Of a DNA stretch of 64,000 nucleotides, positions 29,798-38,242 are shown piece after piece (position 1 is the stretch's first letter; each line of letters opens with the position of its first letter). Origin of the DNA: Balamuthia mandrillaris (taxonomy: Eukaryota); the NCBI GenBank assembly GCA_031835245.2, contig JAVKOQ020000043.1, positions 186,001-250,000 on the forward strand. The letters run 5' to 3'. The notes beneath the pieces were generated by a model. It had not been told where the DNA came from and ran no database searches. It worked only from the letters and a program-made list of their open reading frames with translations. A program made the position numbers and the translations under genes.

Positions 29798-29853
29798 AAA
29801 AAGAGAGAAGCAACTTGAGCTTTGTTTTTCTGGTTCTGTTTTTTCTTTGTTGA

Positions 29854-30948
29854 TCAGTTGACTGTCTCGATGATGTTCTTGCTTCGCTCTTTCTTTCGAG
29901 GGATGGAGTCGGGCTTGCTGTGAGCACGTCGGTTGGTCTCTTTGCGCTCTTGTGCTGTCTTCATAGTCACTTTCAGCTTTTGGGCCAAGTGAATTGACTT
30001 TGGAACGTGTCGATGTCTGTTGTATTCATTCATCAGTAAATACATCCATTTCACCGATAGAAGAGAGAGAGAGAGAGAGAGAGAGAGATACCTTTCAATG
30101 CGTTTCACTTCAGGAAGGTTTCTGTAACGCTGCTTAAGTTTTTCGTTGTACTCGAGCTTTTGTTTCTCTCGTGGATTCAACTGGGTTTTTTTTATTAAAA
30201 CAACAAATGTTAGAACAACATTAAGCGAGGGAGGGAGAGAGAAGATAACGAACAATCTTGACAGGAGCTGAGGCTTGAGCCTTCCAAAGCCGAATGTTGG
30301 TATCATCAGAACCAGTTAAAACATATCTTGAATCAGAAGTAAACTTGATGCAAAATATGCTGTGGAGAGAAATAAGTCGTTTGAACGCAATTTTGAAAAT
30401 AGGGAAAAGAAACCAAAAAAGAAATGAAAGAAATACCGTTGCATGCGTTTTGTGTGATAGACTTCTCTGCTGCGACCACCTTCGACTGGAAAGATTCGCA
30501 GAGTGCGATCATAGGAACCAGTAGCAAACTCTTGCCCGGTTGGGGAATAGTCTATGTCCAGACTTCAAGACAGCATTAAAAAAACAATATTCATAATGGA
30601 GAGAGAGAGAACGAGAACGAGAACGAGAACGAGAACGAGAACGAGAACGAGAACGAGAACGAGAACGAGAACGAGAACGAGAACGTACACAGCAGAAACG
30701 TGGTCTTTGTGAACATTTTGAGCAATATCTAGTCTGCGCATGTCAAAGGTATAACAGTTGTGGTCTTCATTTGCCTGTTACAACAATAAACAACATATTA
30801 ATTGACACGAAGCGCATAAGCTCATTAATAAAAGTACCAGGGTAAAGTTAAATGCTTCCATTGGGTTCCATGCTATCGCGTTCGTTTTCATCTATTTTTT
30901 TAAAAAAAAGTCAGTCCATCATCCAGCTTGTGCTTTGAGAAAGAATAT

Positions 30949-31007
<59 letters not shown>

Positions 31008-32146
31008 ACAAACCGCGAGAATCATTTTTTTGACGGGAGTGTTGCCACGTGTGTCGTATAGAACAACATTACGATCGGTGGCGCTGCTTGCCAATACGTG
31101 TGTCTCGATCGGATTATACTTAACTGTTAGAATGGAGTCACAACCCCATGAATACGTTTGTATTGGCTCTGACCTTTGTGTTTGTTTATTTGTGTTGGCG
31201 TCAAATGTAATGAAGAAAAGAAAGAAACAAACAAACCTAGTGACATCCCAGACATCGACTTCAGTACCAGAGGTCACAAAGTTACTGGAACGAAGACGGT
31301 AGTCCAAACCGCTGAATGCATTCTTTCCAAGAAATGTGTTTATAGGCTGTTGACAGTGGTTATTAGAAAAGAAGAAAAGGCAAAAGGAGAAGAGGAAAGC
31401 AGAAGAAGAGCCAAACCGAAATGTCAGCCGTGTCCCGCTCTTCCATTTCGAGAGACCATTGCTTCACAGTCTGGTCATCTCCGCAAGAAAGAAACGTGTT
31501 GCCGTCCGAGGCAACCACCAAACCTCTCACGAAGCCCGCATGTGCTGGGATCGTCGCCAGCGCTTGTCTAGGCATGAGGAAGAAACAAACGAGAAAAATG
31601 GAGAAAGACCGAGAGAACAGAGAGAAGGAGAGAACAAGAGTAGAGAGGAAACGTGAGAAGAAAGGAACAAAGAGAGAAGAGGAAGAGAGAAGAGAGAAGA
31701 GAGAACGAGAGAACGAGAGAACGAGAGAACGAGAGAACGAGAGAACGAGAGAACGAGAGAACGAGAGAAGAGAAACAAACTTGGTGGAAAGGTTCCAGAC
31801 TTTGACCTCTCCATCACAGCTGCCGGAGAGAAAGGTGGAGAGGCGAGAGGGGTGCTTGGCCATGCAGAACACTCCGTCCGTGTGGCCGCTGAGGGCGGCG
31901 AGGAAGGGCTTGGCGTATATCTTGTCGACTTTAGTGGCGTTGAGGGCGCGCGTGTACTCCCTAGCCTTCTCAAAGGGGTGGATGGAGGGGTCCACGTTGC
32001 GGTGCACCCTCCGGAGGTCCACTTTGCGCTCCCGCGTGAACTCCTCCACATTCCTGGAGATCACGTTCACCTTCTGCTCCGGACCCCACAGAGAAAATTA
32101 GAACCATTTTTTTTGTGCTGTTGACAGAATAAAAAGGGCGGAGGAA

Positions 32147-32470: not shown

Positions 32471-33151
32471 ATGGCAGGCGCTTCGGCAAAGAGGTTGGCA
32501 AAGGAGCTGAAGGAGATGGAGAAGAACCCCCTTCCTTGGGCAAAGGCTGAGCCCACAGGAGACAGTTTGTACAAATGGAAAGCCATCATCACCGGCCCTG
32601 TACGTTCTATTCCTTTTTTCTTTTTTTTTCAAGTTTAGCTCTAAAGACCCTCACCGAAAAAAAAAGTAGCGAAAATCCTTGCTTGCGCTCTTTTCTCACC
32701 CTACTTTTTTCCCCCGTTTTGTAGGAGAACACTCCTTATGATAAGGGAAGCTTCCAATTGGAACTGGAGATGCCCCCCGAGTACCCTTTCAAGGCCCCCA
32801 AAGTGAAGTTCCTCACCAAAATCTATCACCCCAACGTCAAAAGTGATGGTCAGCTCTGTTCCGAAGTGCTCAACCAGGGCTGGAGTCCTCAGCTTAAGAT
32901 CCCTGAAGGTAGAACCATCACGCACTGTTTTTTTTTCTCCTTCCATCCGAGGCTTTTGATTATTCTTGTAGGGTCTTCAACAACTCACCATTGCATTTTT
33001 TTTCCCTCTAGTGTTGCTCACCATCCGCCAAGTGTTGGTGGAGCCCAATCCCGACAATCCTCTCGAGCCCGAAATCGCCAACCAGTACAAGGAGAACCGC
33101 ACTCAGTTCAACAAGACTGCCAAAGAGTGGACGAAAAAGTATGCCAAGTAA
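32471..33151 (+). CDS. Ubiquitin-conjugating enzyme E2 (3 exons)
   Basis: [16 protein letters not shown]...[26 protein letters not shown] (active-site Cys)...[12 protein letters not shown]...[10 protein letters not shown]. Confidence 0.95.
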
Positions 33152-33340: not shown

Positions 33341-33635
33341 TCACACTTCTTCTCCGAAAACGACTTTGAGGGCATTCTCTGCTGCCACTATAGTGTATAA
33401 CATCCCATCACGGAAGAAACAAGTTAAAAGAGAGCACAAGAAGAAGAAGAAGATCAAGAACAAACGAGCTAATGAGTGACCTTGTTCAGCGCTTTGCCGG
33501 GAGTAACTGGTGCCTTCCGCCAAGAAGCGATCCAACAAATAAACACCTACCGTAAAAACGCGCATGTGTGGTGGTCCGCTCTCCGATATTATCCTACGAC
33601 ATTGTTGTGAGAAGAAGTTTGGTTGAAATGAAGAA

Positions 33636-33684
<49 letters not shown>

Positions 33685-34961
33685 CAGAGAGAGAGAGACA
33701 GAGAGACAGAGACAGAGAGAGAGAGAGCAGAGAGAGAAGGAAGAGAGCAGAAACCGATAGGAAGGGCCTTTGCTGCGGTTGCGTGTCTTGGCAAGGATTT
33801 TATGTTGGAGACAGGTCTTGGCATCTCGCCATTCCCTGTCGGTGATAGCTTGCATGGCCCTCGGGAATATGCACACCTCCGCGAATGTCTCCACGCAACC
33901 CATCCCTTTGTCTAACAGCAATGCTCCCACAAACGCTAAAAAGTTGTTGTTTGTTTGTTAAAGAATGAAAGATAAAAAGAGAGCAAAAATAAAAAAAACC
34001 TTCAAAACAATCGGCAAGCATGTTGGTATTGGCACGAGGAAGAAAGGTTTGGGCAGGAAAGAAGCGAAGGTAGTTGGCAAAGCCAAGCGACTCGGCAATG
34101 CCTGATAGAGCGCTGTTGCTCACCAACATACTTCGCAGTAACTCCAGGTAGAGAAGATACCACTTAATGTTAGGAAAAAGAGAAGCACGAAAGAGTGGGT
34201 AAACGTACAGTAAGTTCTCCTTCTTGAAGAAAAGGGAAAGTAAAATAGAGATGACGACTGGTAACGAACTGAAGGATGGCGTCTCCCAAGAACTCCAACC
34301 GCTGATTGTTGCCAATCCCTAAAATGTCCATTCCGTTGGAAAAAGAGGGATGGGTGAAGGCGCGCACGAGTAGCCTAATGTGACGGAAGACGATGCCTAA
34401 AGATTGCTCCAACTCAGTGAAGCGTTTGATGATAGGAGAGCGTAAGATCTCTTCGCGGTCGGTGGGAAAGGGGGTTTGTAGAGGGTGGCGAGGACAACGC
34501 AACCATAGCTGTCGAAACTTTTTCTCCTCTGGGTCGTTGCCAGGAAAGAGCTGTTCAGCAAAAAGTCTGCAACAAGTGTCTAATCCTTGATCCACATATA
34601 CTGCTCCTGTTACAGTTATTGTTTTTGAATTAGGGAAAAAAAAAAAAAAAGACAACGAGAAGAGAATCAGAAGAGAGGAAGGGAGAATATGGAGAACAAG
34701 CGAAAGAACAAGAGATTACCAAGTAAAGACTCGAAACAATCCGCAATCATGTAACGGCGTACCAAGCCTTCTTGAAGGAGGTCTTCGCTGTAGCCGTAGA
34801 GAATGTAGCTATCAAGATTAAGATTGCTAGCAATATGGGCTAAAAACTTATTGTTCACCATGCTCGAACGCATTATTGTAAGATCTCCTTCTTTATGCTC
34901 CGGAAGCTATCATAATGAACACAGAAAGTCAATTTGTGATTGGAGAAACCACAAAGAACGA

Positions 34962-34996
<35 letters not shown>

Positions 34997-35799
34997 ACCT
35001 GACAAAATAAGCTAAAGCTACAAATAAATTCCAGGATGGCATCGCCCAAGAATTCCAATCGCTGGTTGTGTATGATGCCGACAGGCATGAATGGACCAAC
35101 ATTTTTCTTCTGTTCCGTCCCATCCAGAATTGCATTCTCCAGCGTTTTCGCCATATGAAATGTGCTATTATGTCGTCCTGTGATATCATTATCAGTACTT
35201 TGGCACATGTGTGGCACAAGGCAAGAAACGAGAAACCAGGAAAAAAATAAGAGAAGAGAAGAATAAAAAGCAAGATAAGAACCTTTGTAGGTTCTTCCGC
35301 TTTTGCAAGTTGCAGAGTAGGAAGGCCCCGACGGCCGATAGATATGGTAGAGTCTATGTGGCACTTTACCGCAACTTGAACAAATGCGATAGTAGATGTG
35401 TTCCAGTGCTGCAGCATACAGTGCAAAAACTTCAAGATAAGAAACATGAGTGAACACCTATTTTGAGTGGAATGTTATTTGTAAAAGCTCGAGAAAAAGA
35501 AAGGAGAAGAAAAAGTCATTAGAAGGAGAATGGCACCTGTTCAAGTAATTGCTTGTTGCGAAAGGTTATATTGATGCTTTTCTCGAAGCGAGACAACGTT
35601 GCAAATAGACGAGTATGATGGATAACAGCAGGCATCAACGCTCCTGCTTTGCAAATGTCCACCTTTAGCGGTGATACAGTGCAGAGTTCGGGTACTAAGT
35701 ACATCGCGTTGGAGCGATCTTTCCGAAACACTTCCAATACGCTCTCTAAGAGGAAAAATTTAGCTACGTTCTAAAAACAATAAGCGAATAATCGAGGGG

Positions 35800-35851
<52 letters not shown>

Positions 35852-36122
35852 CTGGAGGCATAGGGGAAAGGGCGCCTGGCCCAGGGAGAAGCCCATGCGT
35901 TGAGGTCAGGAGGAGAGCGGACGAAGTGACGGTAGTTAACTTCGTTATTGTTGCTGCCACTGCCCGTTCCATAACTGGAGGTAGTAACTCTTTTACGCAA
36001 TGGGCATGGCGCTGTGTTGTAAATCATGCCAGTTTCAGTTGTTTGCAACTTGATATTATGTTCTCGTTCGAAGTAGTCGTAGAAGTTTGATTGCTGCAAT
36101 AAATGAATTATTTATTGTTAGA

Positions 36123-36159
<37 letters not shown>

Positions 36160-37886
36160 ATACAAAGTGAGAGGAAAAAAACTAGAGAAAAGAGACAAAC
36201 CTCATCGTTACTATCATTAGAGTAATAATAGGTATTTGTTGGATTTAAAGTAGGATTAAATCCGTCAATGCGAAAAGCAACATGAAAAGTACAATATTCC
36301 GTGGTAGCGATGTGGTTCCTCAGCCGCGAGCGAAGCATATCTTGCCAGTACCATCGTGGGTTTGCCTGCTGCTGATTATGTTTTATAGGGGGCTGAAGAG
36401 GAGGTTGAAGGTGAGAGAAAGAAGAATGAAGTGGCCATTGAGCTACCAGTTGGGCGTCTCGTGGATCGGTTGATGCTACATTAGTAGAAGAAAGGGCCGA
36501 TGGTCCTCCTTCCTCTGTTATCATTGCTTCATTGGTCCATCTTTGCAGCAGCTCTTCTGCATTGATGGACGTATCGCAAATGAGTTGACACACAATCGTT
36601 ATAGGTAACTCCTCCATTCGATTCTTCTTCATTGTCTCTCTTTGTTCTGCTACGTTGTTGTTGTCGTTGATGGAGAGTGCTACAAAGCGAGGACATATGT
36701 GAAAACGACGGCAGCCGTTAACTCGCCTCCTGCTAGAGTCATAGTGAGTGGTGGGACCAAGCCACTGCCAGTCGTCCACTTCCAGCAACGTCCCAAATAG
36801 GTACTCGTGAAACCATTCCATTGCCTTCAGGTGCGCCCACTCCATTGCAGCTTGTTCGTCCGTTTCTTCTTCCTTTCCTTCTTCTTCTCCTTTTATCTTT
36901 TTGTCTTTTTCGTTTGCGTTTGTTTCACCATCCAGCTCTCCTTCTTCTTTGATACCTTCTTTTTGGTCTCTTGTAGCTACAGAATTCGCTGGCGAAGAGG
37001 AAGAGGAAGAGGAAGAGGAAGAGGAAGAGGAAGAGGAAGAGGAAGAGGAAGAGGAAGAGGAAGAGGAAGAGGAAGAAGGTGGAATGAAGAAGGAAGGCAT
37101 GGGGCAAGGCGTGAGGGTAGCACGCCAGGGCTTGGCCTCCACTCTCAGGGTTGCAGGTGGCAGCCTCGGTGGGAGCTGCACATGAGAGAGCAAGTAGAAC
37201 CCCTCAAAGCCATAGTCCTCCCCTTCATAGCGCAGCACCGAACGTTCCCCCATAGGAGGCCACCAGTGGTTGCTGCTGTTGTCGCCCAAAGAAGAAGAAG
37301 AAGAACAAGAACAAGAAGAAGAACAAGAAGAAGAAGAAGAAGAAGAAGAACAAGGTACTTCTGTTCCCTCTTGATCTTCGAGCAACGCTGATCCCTCAGA
37401 CGGTCCTTTGGGTGAGTACTTTGCTCCTTCTTCTCCTTCTTCCTCATTTTCATCGTGTTGCGTGGCGGGGCAGATGCGCAGCAAGTACGGGTAGAGACGA
37501 GAGGGACGGCACTGCCGCAAGGGAAGGGCCTCCTCTTCCTCCTCGCCGGGAAACAGCACAAGGGAGGCCTGCTCGTGGATACCACCTATCCGTTTCGTGT
37601 GTCCACGCTTTGTTGTTGTTGTTGTTGTTGTTGAGGCGATGGAAGCGGTGGTGGTGGAGGTGGTGCGGCAATGGTCTTTTTCCTCCTTTTCATCTTTCTC
37701 CTTTCGACCGTCCCTTCTTTCCCTGGAGGCAGGGTAACGGTTTCCAGCAGCACGAGAAGAAGAAGTAGAGGAGACGTCTCGGTATTCTCCTAAACGTGGC
37801 CGCTTGGTGGAACTTCCACCTCCGCCGCCTTCCTCCCGCCTGGCGCCAGGGCCCTTGCTGCGCCGTTGCTCTTCTCTACGTTTCAT
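33341..37886 (-). CDS. DROSHA: Drosha-like class 2 ribonuclease III (central domain, PAZ-like segment, RIIIa, RIIIb, dsRBD; no helicase); multi-exon
   Basis: Two RNase III signatures, HNQRLEFLGDAILEF (~35030-35070) and NNQRLEFLGDAILQF (~34270-34310), each with ADCFE. Inter-domain linker CPRHPLQ...TDREEILRSPIIKRFTELEQSLGIVFRHIRLLVRAFT. C-terminal dsRBD WRDAKTCLQ...SGPPHMRVFTVGVY...SAEQVAAENAL. Upstream motifs FPGEE..CRP, FEGFYLLSH and CRRFHICPRF match the animal Drosha central domain as I recall it. Confidence 0.88.
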
Positions 37887-38242
37887 TCTTCTTTTTCTGC
37901 TACACTTTTGCTACACTTGTTTTTTTGCCTTTCCACTTTTGGAGTTCGATGACGTCATGCGGGTGGAAACTTCAGATGTCGACAAAAATAAGAGCAAACG
38001 GCGCGAGGAGGCACCACCCAACCACCACGGCATCTTTGGGCAGTCCGCCCAAAGCCCCCCATACAGCCCACCTGTGAGCAAGGACGGAGTCGCTGCTAAG
38101 GCGGCGCAAAGATCATAAGATCTAAGGACAACGAAAAAAGGAAAAAATTCAAAATTCGCCGCCTTAGAGTCGCTGCTTGCTGAAAAGATAGAAAAAAAAA
38201 AAAGCAAATGCAATGAATGGTGTTTTTTTTTATATTCACAAG

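What the first reader, a model, noticed from the sequence alone, without database searches (positions are those of the whole stretch)
33341..37886. Apparent bona fide Drosha orthologue in a protist-like genome
Seen in sequence: an RNase III with no helicase, a long charged N-terminus, tandem RIIIa/RIIIb and one dsRBD. The similarity is to Drosha specifically and extends outside the catalytic cores. Pairs below give this protein vs human Drosha recalled from memory: FPGEE..CRP vs YPGEE..CRP; FEGFYLLSH vs FEGFSMFAH; CRRFHICPRF vs CPRFHFMPRF; DICKAGALMPAVIHHTR vs DVCQHAMMLPVLTHHIR; CPRHPLQ..TDREEILRSPIIKRFTELEQSLGIVFRHIRLLVRAFT vs YPLHPLQ..TDRQLIETSPVLQKLTEFEEAIGVIFTHVRLLARAFT; EVCIFPR..EWRDAKTCLQ vs NVCFFPR..DWNDPKSQLQ; GPPHMRVFTVGVY vs GPSHARTYTVAVY. 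Established knowledge: Drosha/Microprocessor is usually described as restricted to animals and some close unicellular holozoan relatives. Inference: if the host is an amoebozoan, Drosha is older than usually stated and a Microprocessor-like hairpin/miRNA pathway may operate here. The gene has host-style introns and microsatellites, which argues against animal contamination.
Basis: partly seen in the sequence, partly recalled or inferred. Interest (0 to 1): 0.92.

Follow-up and report, generated by a model that had tools for sequence, protein, structure and literature searches.

The report
Amoeba Drosha keeping Dicer's PAZ domain
This is an intact gene for Drosha, the enzyme that starts microRNA production in animals, in a non-animal microbe that is likely an amoeba; it still carries a recognisable RNA-end-binding PAZ domain like Dicer's, so Drosha is likely older than animals and their close single-celled relatives.

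Summary
Observation confirmed. An 11-exon minus-strand model gives an open 1191-aa RNase III with both active sites intact. It is a Drosha orthologue: Drosha-type RIIIa insert (94 aa; Dicers 11-16), central-domain profile hit (41 bits; 16 Dicers at most 6.7), and a Drosha clade at 100/99 with the insert removed. Grouping with amoebozoan short Dicers or inside animals is rejected. The closest named relative is from the amoebozoan Nematostelium (49%), which also has a separate short Dicer. The neighbouring DCAF13 gene rejects a holozoan host (p=0.0075); 'amoebozoan' is inferred. Novelty is partial: a 2026 review lists an Acanthamoeba Drosha BLAST hit, and a 2026 paper describes a rhizarian Drosha-like enzyme. 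I found no paper showing amoebozoan orthology or PAZ retention. Function, DGCR8 partner and splice junctions are untested. The scan held no look-alike of this sequence, only related oomycete and Plasmodiophora notes.

The parts
33341..37886 (-). Drosha-family RNase III gene, 11 exons, 1191 aa in the preferred model
   Evidence: Open reading across 10 GT-AG introns; junctions inferred from homology, not from reads
36201..37886 (-). Exon 1 (aa 1-562): charged N-terminus, platform domain split by Ser-rich and acidic insertions, first half of PAZ
37572..37886 (-). Charged, Arg/Ser-rich N-terminal region (aa 1-105; R+S 28% in aa 1-110) with a basic KRPR patch, a possible nuclear localisation signal (inference)
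36657..37571 (-). Platform part of the Drosha central domain (aa 106-410), three collinear blocks
   Evidence: Profile of 28 animal central domains: 41 bits in all, best block aa 348-410 31.6 bits
35675..36350 (-). Dicer-type PAZ domain (aa 513-672), across exons 1-3, more decayed than in the Nematostelium protein
   Evidence: Profile of 13 Dicer PAZ regions: 24.8 bits whole protein, 28.9 for aa 480-700, best of 200 shuffles 6.2; Pfam PAZ on exon 3 alone E 0.044, below cut-off
35576..35674 (-). Connector helix with the conserved kink proline (aa 673-705)
   Evidence: kink proline described in PMC6903759
34539..35575 (-). RNase IIIa (aa 706-921), acidic residues E818, D822, D892, E895
35068..35445 (-). 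Drosha-specific insert in RNase IIIa (bump helix and wedge region); 94 aa by the count, 29 aa shorter with the alternative donor at 35369
34428..34538 (-). Drosha-type linker between RIIIa and RIIIb
33859..34427 (-). RNase IIIb (aa 959-1104), acidic residues E1003, D1007, D1075, E1078
33359..33828 (-). Single C-terminal dsRBD (aa 1115-1186), exons 9-11
   Evidence: Pfam dsrm 26.8 bits on exon 10, cut-off 23
35853..36093 (-). Exon 2
35537..35763 (-). Exon 3 (alternative acceptor at 35746 fits equally)
35283..35457 (-). Exon 4 (alternative donor at 35369 fits slightly better, 505 against 503 bits)
34999..35177 (-). Exon 5
34720..34906 (-). Exon 6
34209..34606 (-). Exon 7
34000..34141 (-). Exon 8 (GAG acceptor preferred by homology; AAG at 34163 is the alternative)
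33755..33935 (-). Exon 9
33481..33593 (-). Exon 10
33341..33387 (-). Exon 11 with stop codon

Best explanation
The gene encodes an intact Drosha orthologue of a non-holozoan protist, likely an amoebozoan, that keeps a Dicer-type PAZ domain and likely makes the first cut at the base of hairpin RNA stems. Shown by sequence: two RNase III domains with all eight acidic residues, one dsRBD, the Drosha platform, connector and RIIIa insert, and a PAZ domain. Inferred from human Drosha structures: the two domains would form one processing centre leaving 2-nt 3' overhangs; the insert would block the duplex about one helical turn from the RIIIa site, so the enzyme would measure from a single-strand/duplex junction rather than dice long duplexes. 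Inferred: PAZ would hold the 3' single-stranded flank or a free 3' end where animals use the belt helices, and a separate short PAZ-Dicer (present beside the Drosha in Nematostelium) would make the second cut, probably without a true DGCR8. Odds by step: Drosha orthology 0.93; non-holozoan host 0.9; amoebozoan host 0.8; hairpin-cropping role upstream of a second Dicer about 0.55.
For: Insert 94 aa against 62-71 in 13 named animal Droshas and 11-16 in 16 Dicer-type rows. Animal central-domain profile: window 41 bits, Nematostelium P0174 137.5, 16 of 16 Dicer-type rows at most 6.7. IQ-TREE C20, 35 rows, 416 columns, insert removed: Drosha clade 100/99, animal clade 97/97, protist-type group 86/82; Planoprotostelium P0105 also inside (SH-aLRT 95). 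AU tests reject grouping with short Dicers (p 6e-7), inside cnidarian-bilaterian Droshas (p 7e-72) and with the animal clade alone (p 0.015). PAZ: window 24.8 bits, P0174 51.5, P0008 37.6, 33 named animals at most 3.4; Pfam PAZ above cut-off in P0174 and P0008; the P0174 model superposes on Hiwi1 PAZ, Z 15.5, rmsd 1.9 over 104 residues, and predicts helices at 605-624 and 650-658 inside the insert. Nematostelium has both P0174 and the short Dicer P0005. Acanthamoeba has miRNAs and two Dicer-like genes (PMC11014262, passages). Host: DCAF13 outside animals 100/99 and outside opisthokonts 88/97, holozoan placement rejected p 0.0075; the stretch is held by 14 runs of 5 studies under one organism label.
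Against: No function was tested. No genome is held, so DGCR8, a second Dicer and Argonaute could not be sought in this host; a review found no DGCR8 in Acanthamoeba or Naegleria. The only tested non-holozoan Drosha-like enzyme, PbDRL, cuts long dsRNA into 21-nt products alone and did not bind two dsRBD proteins in two-hybrid tests, which fits rival 1. The window protein lacks the CxC...GIRH motif found in 25 of 33 animal Droshas, and its wedge region aligns poorly. PAZ was detected in only 3 of 7 protist-type rows tested (P0105, P0078, P0107 and the fragment P0001 were not significant). The DCAF13 trees do not join the host to the two named dictyostelids with support. Expression is low: depth 0-1.75 against up to about 21 for the neighbouring E2 gene. 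The trees hold no animal Dicer, DrnA/B, named ichthyosporean Drosha, Acanthamoeba protein, PbDRL or oomycete DCL2. The fold was predicted for the Nematostelium relative, not for the window protein.
Confidence: 0.55

Rival explanations
1. Same ancestry, Dicer-like job: the Drosha orthologue works alone, anchors a free 3' end in its PAZ domain and makes about 21-nt small RNAs from long dsRNA or long hairpins, doing both cuts itself.
For: PAZ is retained. PbDRL, a bump-helix Drosha-like protein, makes 21-nt products from long dsRNA without a partner (PMC13547706, passages). No DGCR8 was found in two amoebae. Dictyostelium miRNA precursors seem long and plant-like (PMC10328071, passage).
Against: The insert is placed to block a continuous duplex in the human model (PMC6903759, passage). 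The window's PAZ is decayed, with the QPLL motif replaced. Nematostelium keeps a separate insert-less PAZ-Dicer that could do this job.
Confidence: 0.27
2. The orthologue cuts structured RNA for another purpose, such as hairpins in mRNAs, transposon transcripts or pre-rRNA, and makes no guide RNAs.
For: Creolimax has Microprocessor genes but no detected miRNAs, and Drosha cuts other stem-loops (PMC6206976, section 5). Low expression. A perfect 409-nt inverted repeat lies in the same window.
Against: miRNAs were found in all nine amoebozoans examined, two of them Acanthamoeba. No such substrate was tested here.
Confidence: 0.13
3. The gene came from an animal or another holozoan by contamination or lateral transfer and says nothing about the age of Drosha.
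For: Distribution in Amoebozoa looks patchy: Dictyostelium DrnA/B are reported to cluster with Dicers (PMC5056781, passage). No named ichthyosporean Drosha was in my trees, so an old transfer from that lineage is not tested.
Against: AU tests reject placement in or beside the animal clade alone. It shares PAZ and the RIIIa aspartate with Dicers, where 31 of 33 animal Droshas have asparagine. Ten host-style introns; 14 runs of 5 studies; relatives in two named amoebozoan genera.
Confidence: 0.03
4. It is an amoebozoan helicase-less Dicer that resembles Drosha by convergence or by loss of domains.
For: Amoebozoan short Dicers have the same domain order, and the fold model of one (P0005) also ranks human Drosha first.
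Against: AU p 6e-7; insert and central-domain profile separate the groups; both types occur in one species.
Confidence: 0.02

Closest known systems
Human DROSHA (PDB 5b16, 6v5b, 6lxd, 9asm)
   Same: Domain order platform-connector-RIIIa with insert-RIIIb-dsRBD, no helicase; collinear sequence matches in exons 1, 3, 7, 9; same clade.
   Different: Keeps a Dicer-type PAZ where animals have a PAZ-like domain with belt helices; no CxC...GIRH motif; aspartate instead of asparagine in the second RIIIa motif; no proline-rich start; no known DGCR8.
Nematostelium gracile EP01118_P017027 (P0174), unannotated EukProt protein
   Same: 503 bits, 49% over 526 aa; same architecture with PAZ and insert; same group in trees.
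   Different: Compact central domain without the window's long low-complexity insertions; better kept PAZ (51.5 against 24.8 bits). Not described as Drosha in any paper I found.
Acanthamoeba castellanii ACA1_291000
   Same: Listed as best hit to human Drosha, 40% identity, E 2e-78, against 5e-12 for Dicer (PMC13315211, Table 3); probably the same family (inference).
   Different: Only a BLAST entry in a review, no tree or domain analysis; the sequence was not retrieved here, so it was not compared.
Plasmodiophora brassicae PbDRL (Rhizaria)
   Same: Two RNase III domains, dsRBD, bump helix, clusters with Drosha (PMC13547706).
   Different: Other supergroup; shown to make 21-nt RNAs without Dicer; no PAZ is mentioned for it in the passages seen; its reference Drosha set holds only holozoans (Table S12). 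Sequence not compared here.
Ichthyosporean Drosha (Brate et al. 2018)
   Same: Recognised by the same three criteria: two RNase III domains, bump insert, tree (PMC6206976).
   Different: Holozoan, accompanied by Pasha; that study searched opisthokonts, with Dictyostelium listed among its resources.
Amoebozoan short PAZ-Dicers (P0005 Nematostelium, P0044 Soliformovum, P0068 Protostelium, P0064 Thecamoeba)
   Same: No helicase; platform, PAZ, connector, two RNase III domains, dsRBD.
   Different: No insert (16 aa), no hit to the Drosha central-domain profile, separate clade 98/96.
Oomycete DCL2 and Dictyostelium DrnA/DrnB
   Same: Described as Drosha-like in layout or tree position; DCL2 has a PAZ domain (PMC4791657; PMC5056781).
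   Different: DrnB has its dsRBD at the N-terminus and is reported to cluster with Dicers; DCL2 was judged separate from Drosha. Neither was compared here.

Membership tests
Drosha family (orthology criteria of PMC6206976) | Two consecutive RNase III domains | tested here: met
   eight acidic residues present
Drosha family (orthology criteria of PMC6206976) | Insert in RNase IIIa that forms the bump helix | tested here: met
   94 aa against 11-16 in 16 Dicer-type rows; helix predicted at 605-624 in the relative P0174; the window protein itself was not folded
Drosha family (orthology criteria of PMC6206976) | Clade with animal Drosha, independent of the insert | tested here: met
   100/99; AU tests; no animal Dicer in the tree
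Drosha family (orthology criteria of PMC6206976) | Single C-terminal dsRBD and no helicase or DUF283 | tested here: met
Drosha family (orthology criteria of PMC6206976) | Drosha-type central domain (platform, connector) | tested here: met
   41 bits against at most 6.7 for 16 Dicer-type rows
Animal-type Drosha (Microprocessor subunit) | PAZ no longer recognisable by sequence | tested here: not met
   PAZ profile 24.8 bits; 33 named animals at most 3.4. Lack of PAZ is called a hallmark in PMC4791657
Animal-type Drosha (Microprocessor subunit) | CxC...GIRH motif (first zinc site; that role is recalled, not from a call) | tested here: not met
   absent in 10 of 10 protist-type rows, 4 of them fragments without that region; present in 25 of 33 animals
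Animal-type Drosha (Microprocessor subunit) | NxxE second motif in RNase IIIa | tested here: not met
   DxxE in 9 of 10 protist-type rows (1 not scored); N in 31 of 33 animals; motif noted in PMC4791657
Animal-type Drosha (Microprocessor subunit) | Belt helices and wedge that clamp the basal junction | tested here: inconclusive
   described in PMC11100773; no belt-like hairpin with good confidence in the P0174 model (513-539 low pLDDT); wedge aligns in P0174, poorly in the window
Animal-type Drosha (Microprocessor subunit) | DGCR8/Pasha partner | not testable with these tools
   no genome held
Animal-type Drosha (Microprocessor subunit) | Crops pri-miRNA about 11 bp from the basal junction, in the nucleus | not testable with these tools
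   needs biochemistry and small-RNA data
Canonical Dicer / DCL | N-terminal helicase and DUF283 | tested here: not met
Canonical Dicer / DCL | PAZ domain before the connector | tested here: met
Amoebozoan short PAZ-Dicers | No insert in RNase IIIa; member of their clade | tested here: not met
Host in Holozoa | Neighbouring single-copy gene groups with holozoans | tested here: not met
   DCAF13, AU p 0.0075; one gene only
Host in Amoebozoa | Neighbouring single-copy gene groups with amoebozoans | tested here: inconclusive
   unresolved; an 18-row set at support 81 that also holds a rhizarian

The most novel reading that the evidence does not exclude
Drosha split from a short PAZ-bearing Dicer before amoebozoans and opisthokonts parted, perhaps near the root of eukaryotes. 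Amoebae that keep both paralogues run a two-enzyme hairpin pathway homologous to the animal one. These proteins are the living intermediate in which PAZ had not yet been remodelled into the PAZ-like domain and belt, and DGCR8 was added later in Holozoa.
Probability: 0.35. Interest if true: 0.87.

Novelty: new variant of a known kind. Interest (0 to 1): 0.68.

Why it matters
Reviews and primary papers still place the origin of Drosha in a metazoan or early holozoan ancestor (PMC10328071; PMC6206976), and one model calls opisthokonts the only organisms that evolved it (PMC5056781). Brate et al. wrote that an earlier origin would need such proteins in other lineages. A supported amoebozoan Drosha group supplies that, implies loss in fungi and dictyostelids, and reopens whether miRNA machinery in amoebae and animals is homologous. 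A Drosha with a recognisable PAZ makes the structure-based idea that Drosha descends from a Dicer directly testable: one can ask of a single enzyme whether it measures from an RNA end or from a junction. The Acanthamoeba miRNAs give a ready system.

Tried and rejected
No whole genome is held: no search for DGCR8, Dicer or Argonaute in the host. No RNA holder was listed among indexed runs; laid raw RNA reads were too shallow to show any joint in the gene, so splice sites and strain polymorphism stay untested. ESM Atlas on aa 105-562 of exon 1 gave only scores of 0.80 or less, chance level. Structure ranking as proof of Drosha identity was rejected as sufficient: the control model of the short Dicer P0005 also ranks Drosha first (Foldseek 9.5e-29 against 3.0e-27 for Dicer; VIA Z 35.5 against 33.1); only the wider gap for P0174 (2.2e-49 against 4.1e-23; Z 39.8, rmsd 9.7 over 612, against Z 33.0, rmsd 4.7 over 601) says something, and it partly reflects sequence identity and an alignment rich in animal Droshas. 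Folding exon 1 was dropped because its alignment was wrong. The DCAF13 exon search found no close relative (best 70%, unnamed; 124 of 426 candidates). Rfam: 0 matches in the window. The E2 codon figure was out of frame and is not used. P0107 (4.6 bits) and the fragment P0001 (8.9) did not pass the central-domain profile. Kwon 2016 was not requested; two other papers were not held; the supplement of PMC11014262, with its Dicer trees and domain figures, could not be read and may bear on novelty. No complex prediction was run: no partner is known.
Full report
1. Observation. The region holds a minus-strand gene from ATG 37886 to TGA 33341. Eleven exons joined at GT-AG sites give an open frame of 1191 aa; the ten introns are 64-161 nt and 69-85% pyrimidine. 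Four alternative splice choices also read open and change the score against the closest relative by at most 10 bits, so three junctions and one possible intron retention are uncertain. Raw RNA reads from three runs with the same species label (3-5% of each run read) cover the neighbouring E2 gene well, with two GT-AG joints, but cover this gene at depth 0-1.75 with no joint listed; one contig of a run guessed to be RNA lies on 36391-36665. The gene therefore seems weakly transcribed, and its splicing is not shown. The stretch is held in whole or part by 14 runs of 5 studies, all under one organism label.

2. Exon-wise comparison with solved structures. Exon 7 scores 136 bits against human Drosha and 57.6 against the best Dicer. 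Exon 9 hits only Drosha, 5 of 5. Exon 1 has two Drosha chains as best hits, weakly (E 0.017, 0.027). Exon 3 matches Drosha over residues 31-74 (E 0.016) and Dicer over 17-55 (E 0.023), which first pointed to a PAZ end before the connector. Pfam finds RNase III pieces and a dsRBD and no helicase in 10 exons or 3 upstream ORFs. Both domains keep their four acidic residues.

3. Relatives. Searches gave 5 proteins, the best 150 of 7,114 and the best 120 of 5,358. The best named relative is P0174 of Nematostelium gracile, an amoebozoan (lineage recalled): 503 bits, 49% over 526 aa, against 305 bits for a lizard Drosha. Unnamed metagenome proteins P0006, P0008 and P0001 score 402, 387 and 345. P0105 of Planoprotostelium fungivorum is a more distant member. 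A second group of helicase-less proteins comes from Nematostelium (P0005), Soliformovum, Protostelium and Thecamoeba. Nematostelium thus has one of each.

4. Family tests. (a) Insert in RNase IIIa, the diagnostic used in PMC6206976: 94 aa here, 80 in P0174, 45-69 in five unnamed protist-type rows, 62-71 in 13 named animals, 11-16 in 16 Dicer-type rows. (b) A profile from the central domain of 28 animal Droshas (30 chosen, 2 lacked both signatures), without RNase III columns: window 41 bits, P0174 137.5, P0008 31, P0078 26.8, P0105 22.9; P0107 4.6 and the fragment P0001 8.9 fail; 16 of 16 Dicer-type rows at most 6.7. (c) Trees with the insert removed. A FastTree of 72 of the 77 rows with two signatures (of 158 then held) gave the same grouping at support 87-91. 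IQ-TREE LG+C20 on 35 rows (43 chosen; P0105 and P0284 missed by the motif filter, six dropped for size) and 416 columns gave a Drosha clade of 22 rows at 100/99, made of 13 rows with the animals (97/97; two unnamed) and 9 protist-type rows (86/82); the amoebozoan short Dicers form their own clade (98/96). A quick tree of 37 rows adds P0105 to the Drosha clade (95) and leaves the Clastostelium protein outside. AU tests reject the window with the short Dicers (p 6e-7), with Nematostella plus seven bilaterians (p 7e-72) and with the animal clade apart from the other protist rows (p 0.015). Missing from all trees: animal Dicers, DrnA/B, named ichthyosporeans, the Acanthamoeba protein, PbDRL and oomycete DCL2. 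The Dicer outgroup is one named fungal Dicer and three unnamed rows.

5. What differs from animals. A profile from the PAZ regions of 13 Dicers outside the Drosha clade scores the window at 24.8 bits (28.9 for aa 480-700; best of 200 shuffles 6.2), P0174 at 51.5 and P0008 at 37.6; 24 of 33 named animal Droshas score at most 3.4 and 9 are not reported; P0105, P0078, P0107 and P0001 are not significant. Pfam PAZ passes its cut-off in P0174 and P0008 and is absent from the two named animal rows and one unnamed animal-clade row scanned. The AlphaFold model of P0174 (mean pLDDT 71.6, pTM 0.70) superposes on the Hiwi1 PAZ domain at Z 15.5, rmsd 1.9 over 104 residues. The second RIIIa motif has aspartate in 9 of 10 protist-type rows and 8 of 9 short Dicers, asparagine in 31 of 33 animals; the CxC...GIRH motif is in 25 of 33 animals and in no protist-type row. 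The cysteine and histidine motifs that I recall as the second zinc site are present in the window and in P0174. These states are shared with Dicers, so they read as ancestral (inference). In one alignment the animal segment that I take to hold the belt sits over the PAZ pocket helix; that the belt was remodelled from PAZ is a suggestion only.

6. Fold control. The P0174 model ranks human Drosha first, but so does the model of the short Dicer P0005, nearly tied with Dicer. The rank alone is not evidence; the sequence tests carry the assignment.

7. Host. DCAF13, 1.2 kb from the gene's end, is 59-70% identical in its first exon to fish, chytrid, dictyostelid and unnamed proteins alike. In a careful tree of 31 of 121 rows it lies outside animals (100/99) and outside opisthokonts (88/97); holding it with animals and the two EukProt rows inside opisthokonts is rejected (p 0.0075; that those two are ichthyosporeans is recalled from an identifier style). 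A MEI2-type RRM (PF04059) at 60587-60937 fits a non-animal host (recalled knowledge). An amoebozoan host is inferred from the Drosha relatives and is not resolved by DCAF13. A discosean amoeba is my guess from intron style, from memory and unverified. The claim that Amoebozoa have Drosha does not depend on this, since P0174 and P0105 are named.

8. Mechanism. Shown: the parts. Inferred from human structures (PMC6903759; PMC13049099; PMC11100773; passages only): an intramolecular RNase III pair cuts both strands; the bump helix stops the duplex about 11 bp from the RIIIa site; belt, wedge and dsRBD clamp the basal junction. I favour junction-guided cropping of hairpins followed by a second Dicer (0.55), because the insert is kept and a separate insert-less Dicer exists in a relative. 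The main rival (0.27) is stand-alone, PAZ-anchored dicing, as shown for PbDRL.

9. Prior art. Ten searches of the library. PMC13315211 (passages and Table 3) lists A. castellanii ACA1_291000 as best hit to human Drosha (40%, E 2e-78) without a tree, and found no DGCR8. PMC13547706 (passages, supplement search, Table S12) describes PbDRL in Rhizaria. PMC6206976 (passages and all of section 5) puts the origin early in Holozoa. PMC11014262 (passages; supplement unreadable) reports amoebozoan miRNAs and two Acanthamoeba 'Dicers', and names Drosha only in a reference. PMC5056781, PMC4791657, PMC10328071 and PMC7154892 were seen as passages. None of what I saw shows an amoebozoan Drosha clade or a Drosha with PAZ; subscription papers are outside the library. 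Earlier notes of this scan: none like this sequence, none on this genome, 8 of 34 Drosha notes seen, and 8 near matches.

10. Verdict. A real Drosha orthologue of a PAZ-keeping, non-animal type. The family is known and its presence outside Holozoa is partly in print, so this is a new variant rather than a new system. Its value lies in dating the Drosha-Dicer split and in offering a testable intermediate. Interest 0.68.

Noticed in passing
window 38096-38167: A 72-bp element with perfect 11-bp terminal inverted repeats flanked by an 8-bp direct repeat, about 210 bp upstream of the Drosha start codon; many RNA reads match 38097-38140 and run on into other sequence, so it looks like a dispersed miniature DNA transposon.
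   Followed up: partly
window 15377-16359: A perfect 409-nt inverted repeat with a 165-nt spacer; both arms carry the start of the same 204-codon frame with no Pfam hit. It would give a long hairpin if transcribed, or may be an assembly fold-back.
   Followed up: partly
window 34142: The homology-preferred acceptor of intron 7 ends in GAG, an uncommon 3' splice site; the alternative AAG at 34163 adds 7 residues inside RNase IIIb.
   Followed up: partly
window 32472-33151 (+) and 29853-32107 (-): A ubiquitin-conjugating enzyme gene, spliced and well expressed, ends about 190 bp from the Drosha stop codon on the opposite strand; DCAF13 is transcribed divergently from it.
   Followed up: partly
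window 371-1540 (+); 60587-60937 (+): An Fe/Mn superoxide dismutase whose motif looks iron-type (recalled) and a MEI2-type RRM protein, both of kinds I recall as absent from animals.
   Followed up: partly
proteins P0078 and P0107 (unnamed, no locus fetched): Two unnamed proteins carry the Drosha insert and fall in the Drosha clade but have a different amino-acid make-up and no PAZ hit; they may come from other protist supergroups, which would widen the range further.
   Followed up: partly
proteins P0005, P0044, P0064, P0068, P0090: Helicase-less PAZ-Dicers in several amoebozoans and in Pharyngomonas; the model of P0005 matches Drosha and Dicer structures about equally, as expected of a template for Drosha.
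   Followed up: partly
proteins P0103 / P0284 (Clastostelium): An RNase III protein with a shorter, unrelated-looking insert in RIIIa and weak PAZ and Dicer-dimer hits; it falls outside the Drosha clade.
   Followed up: partly
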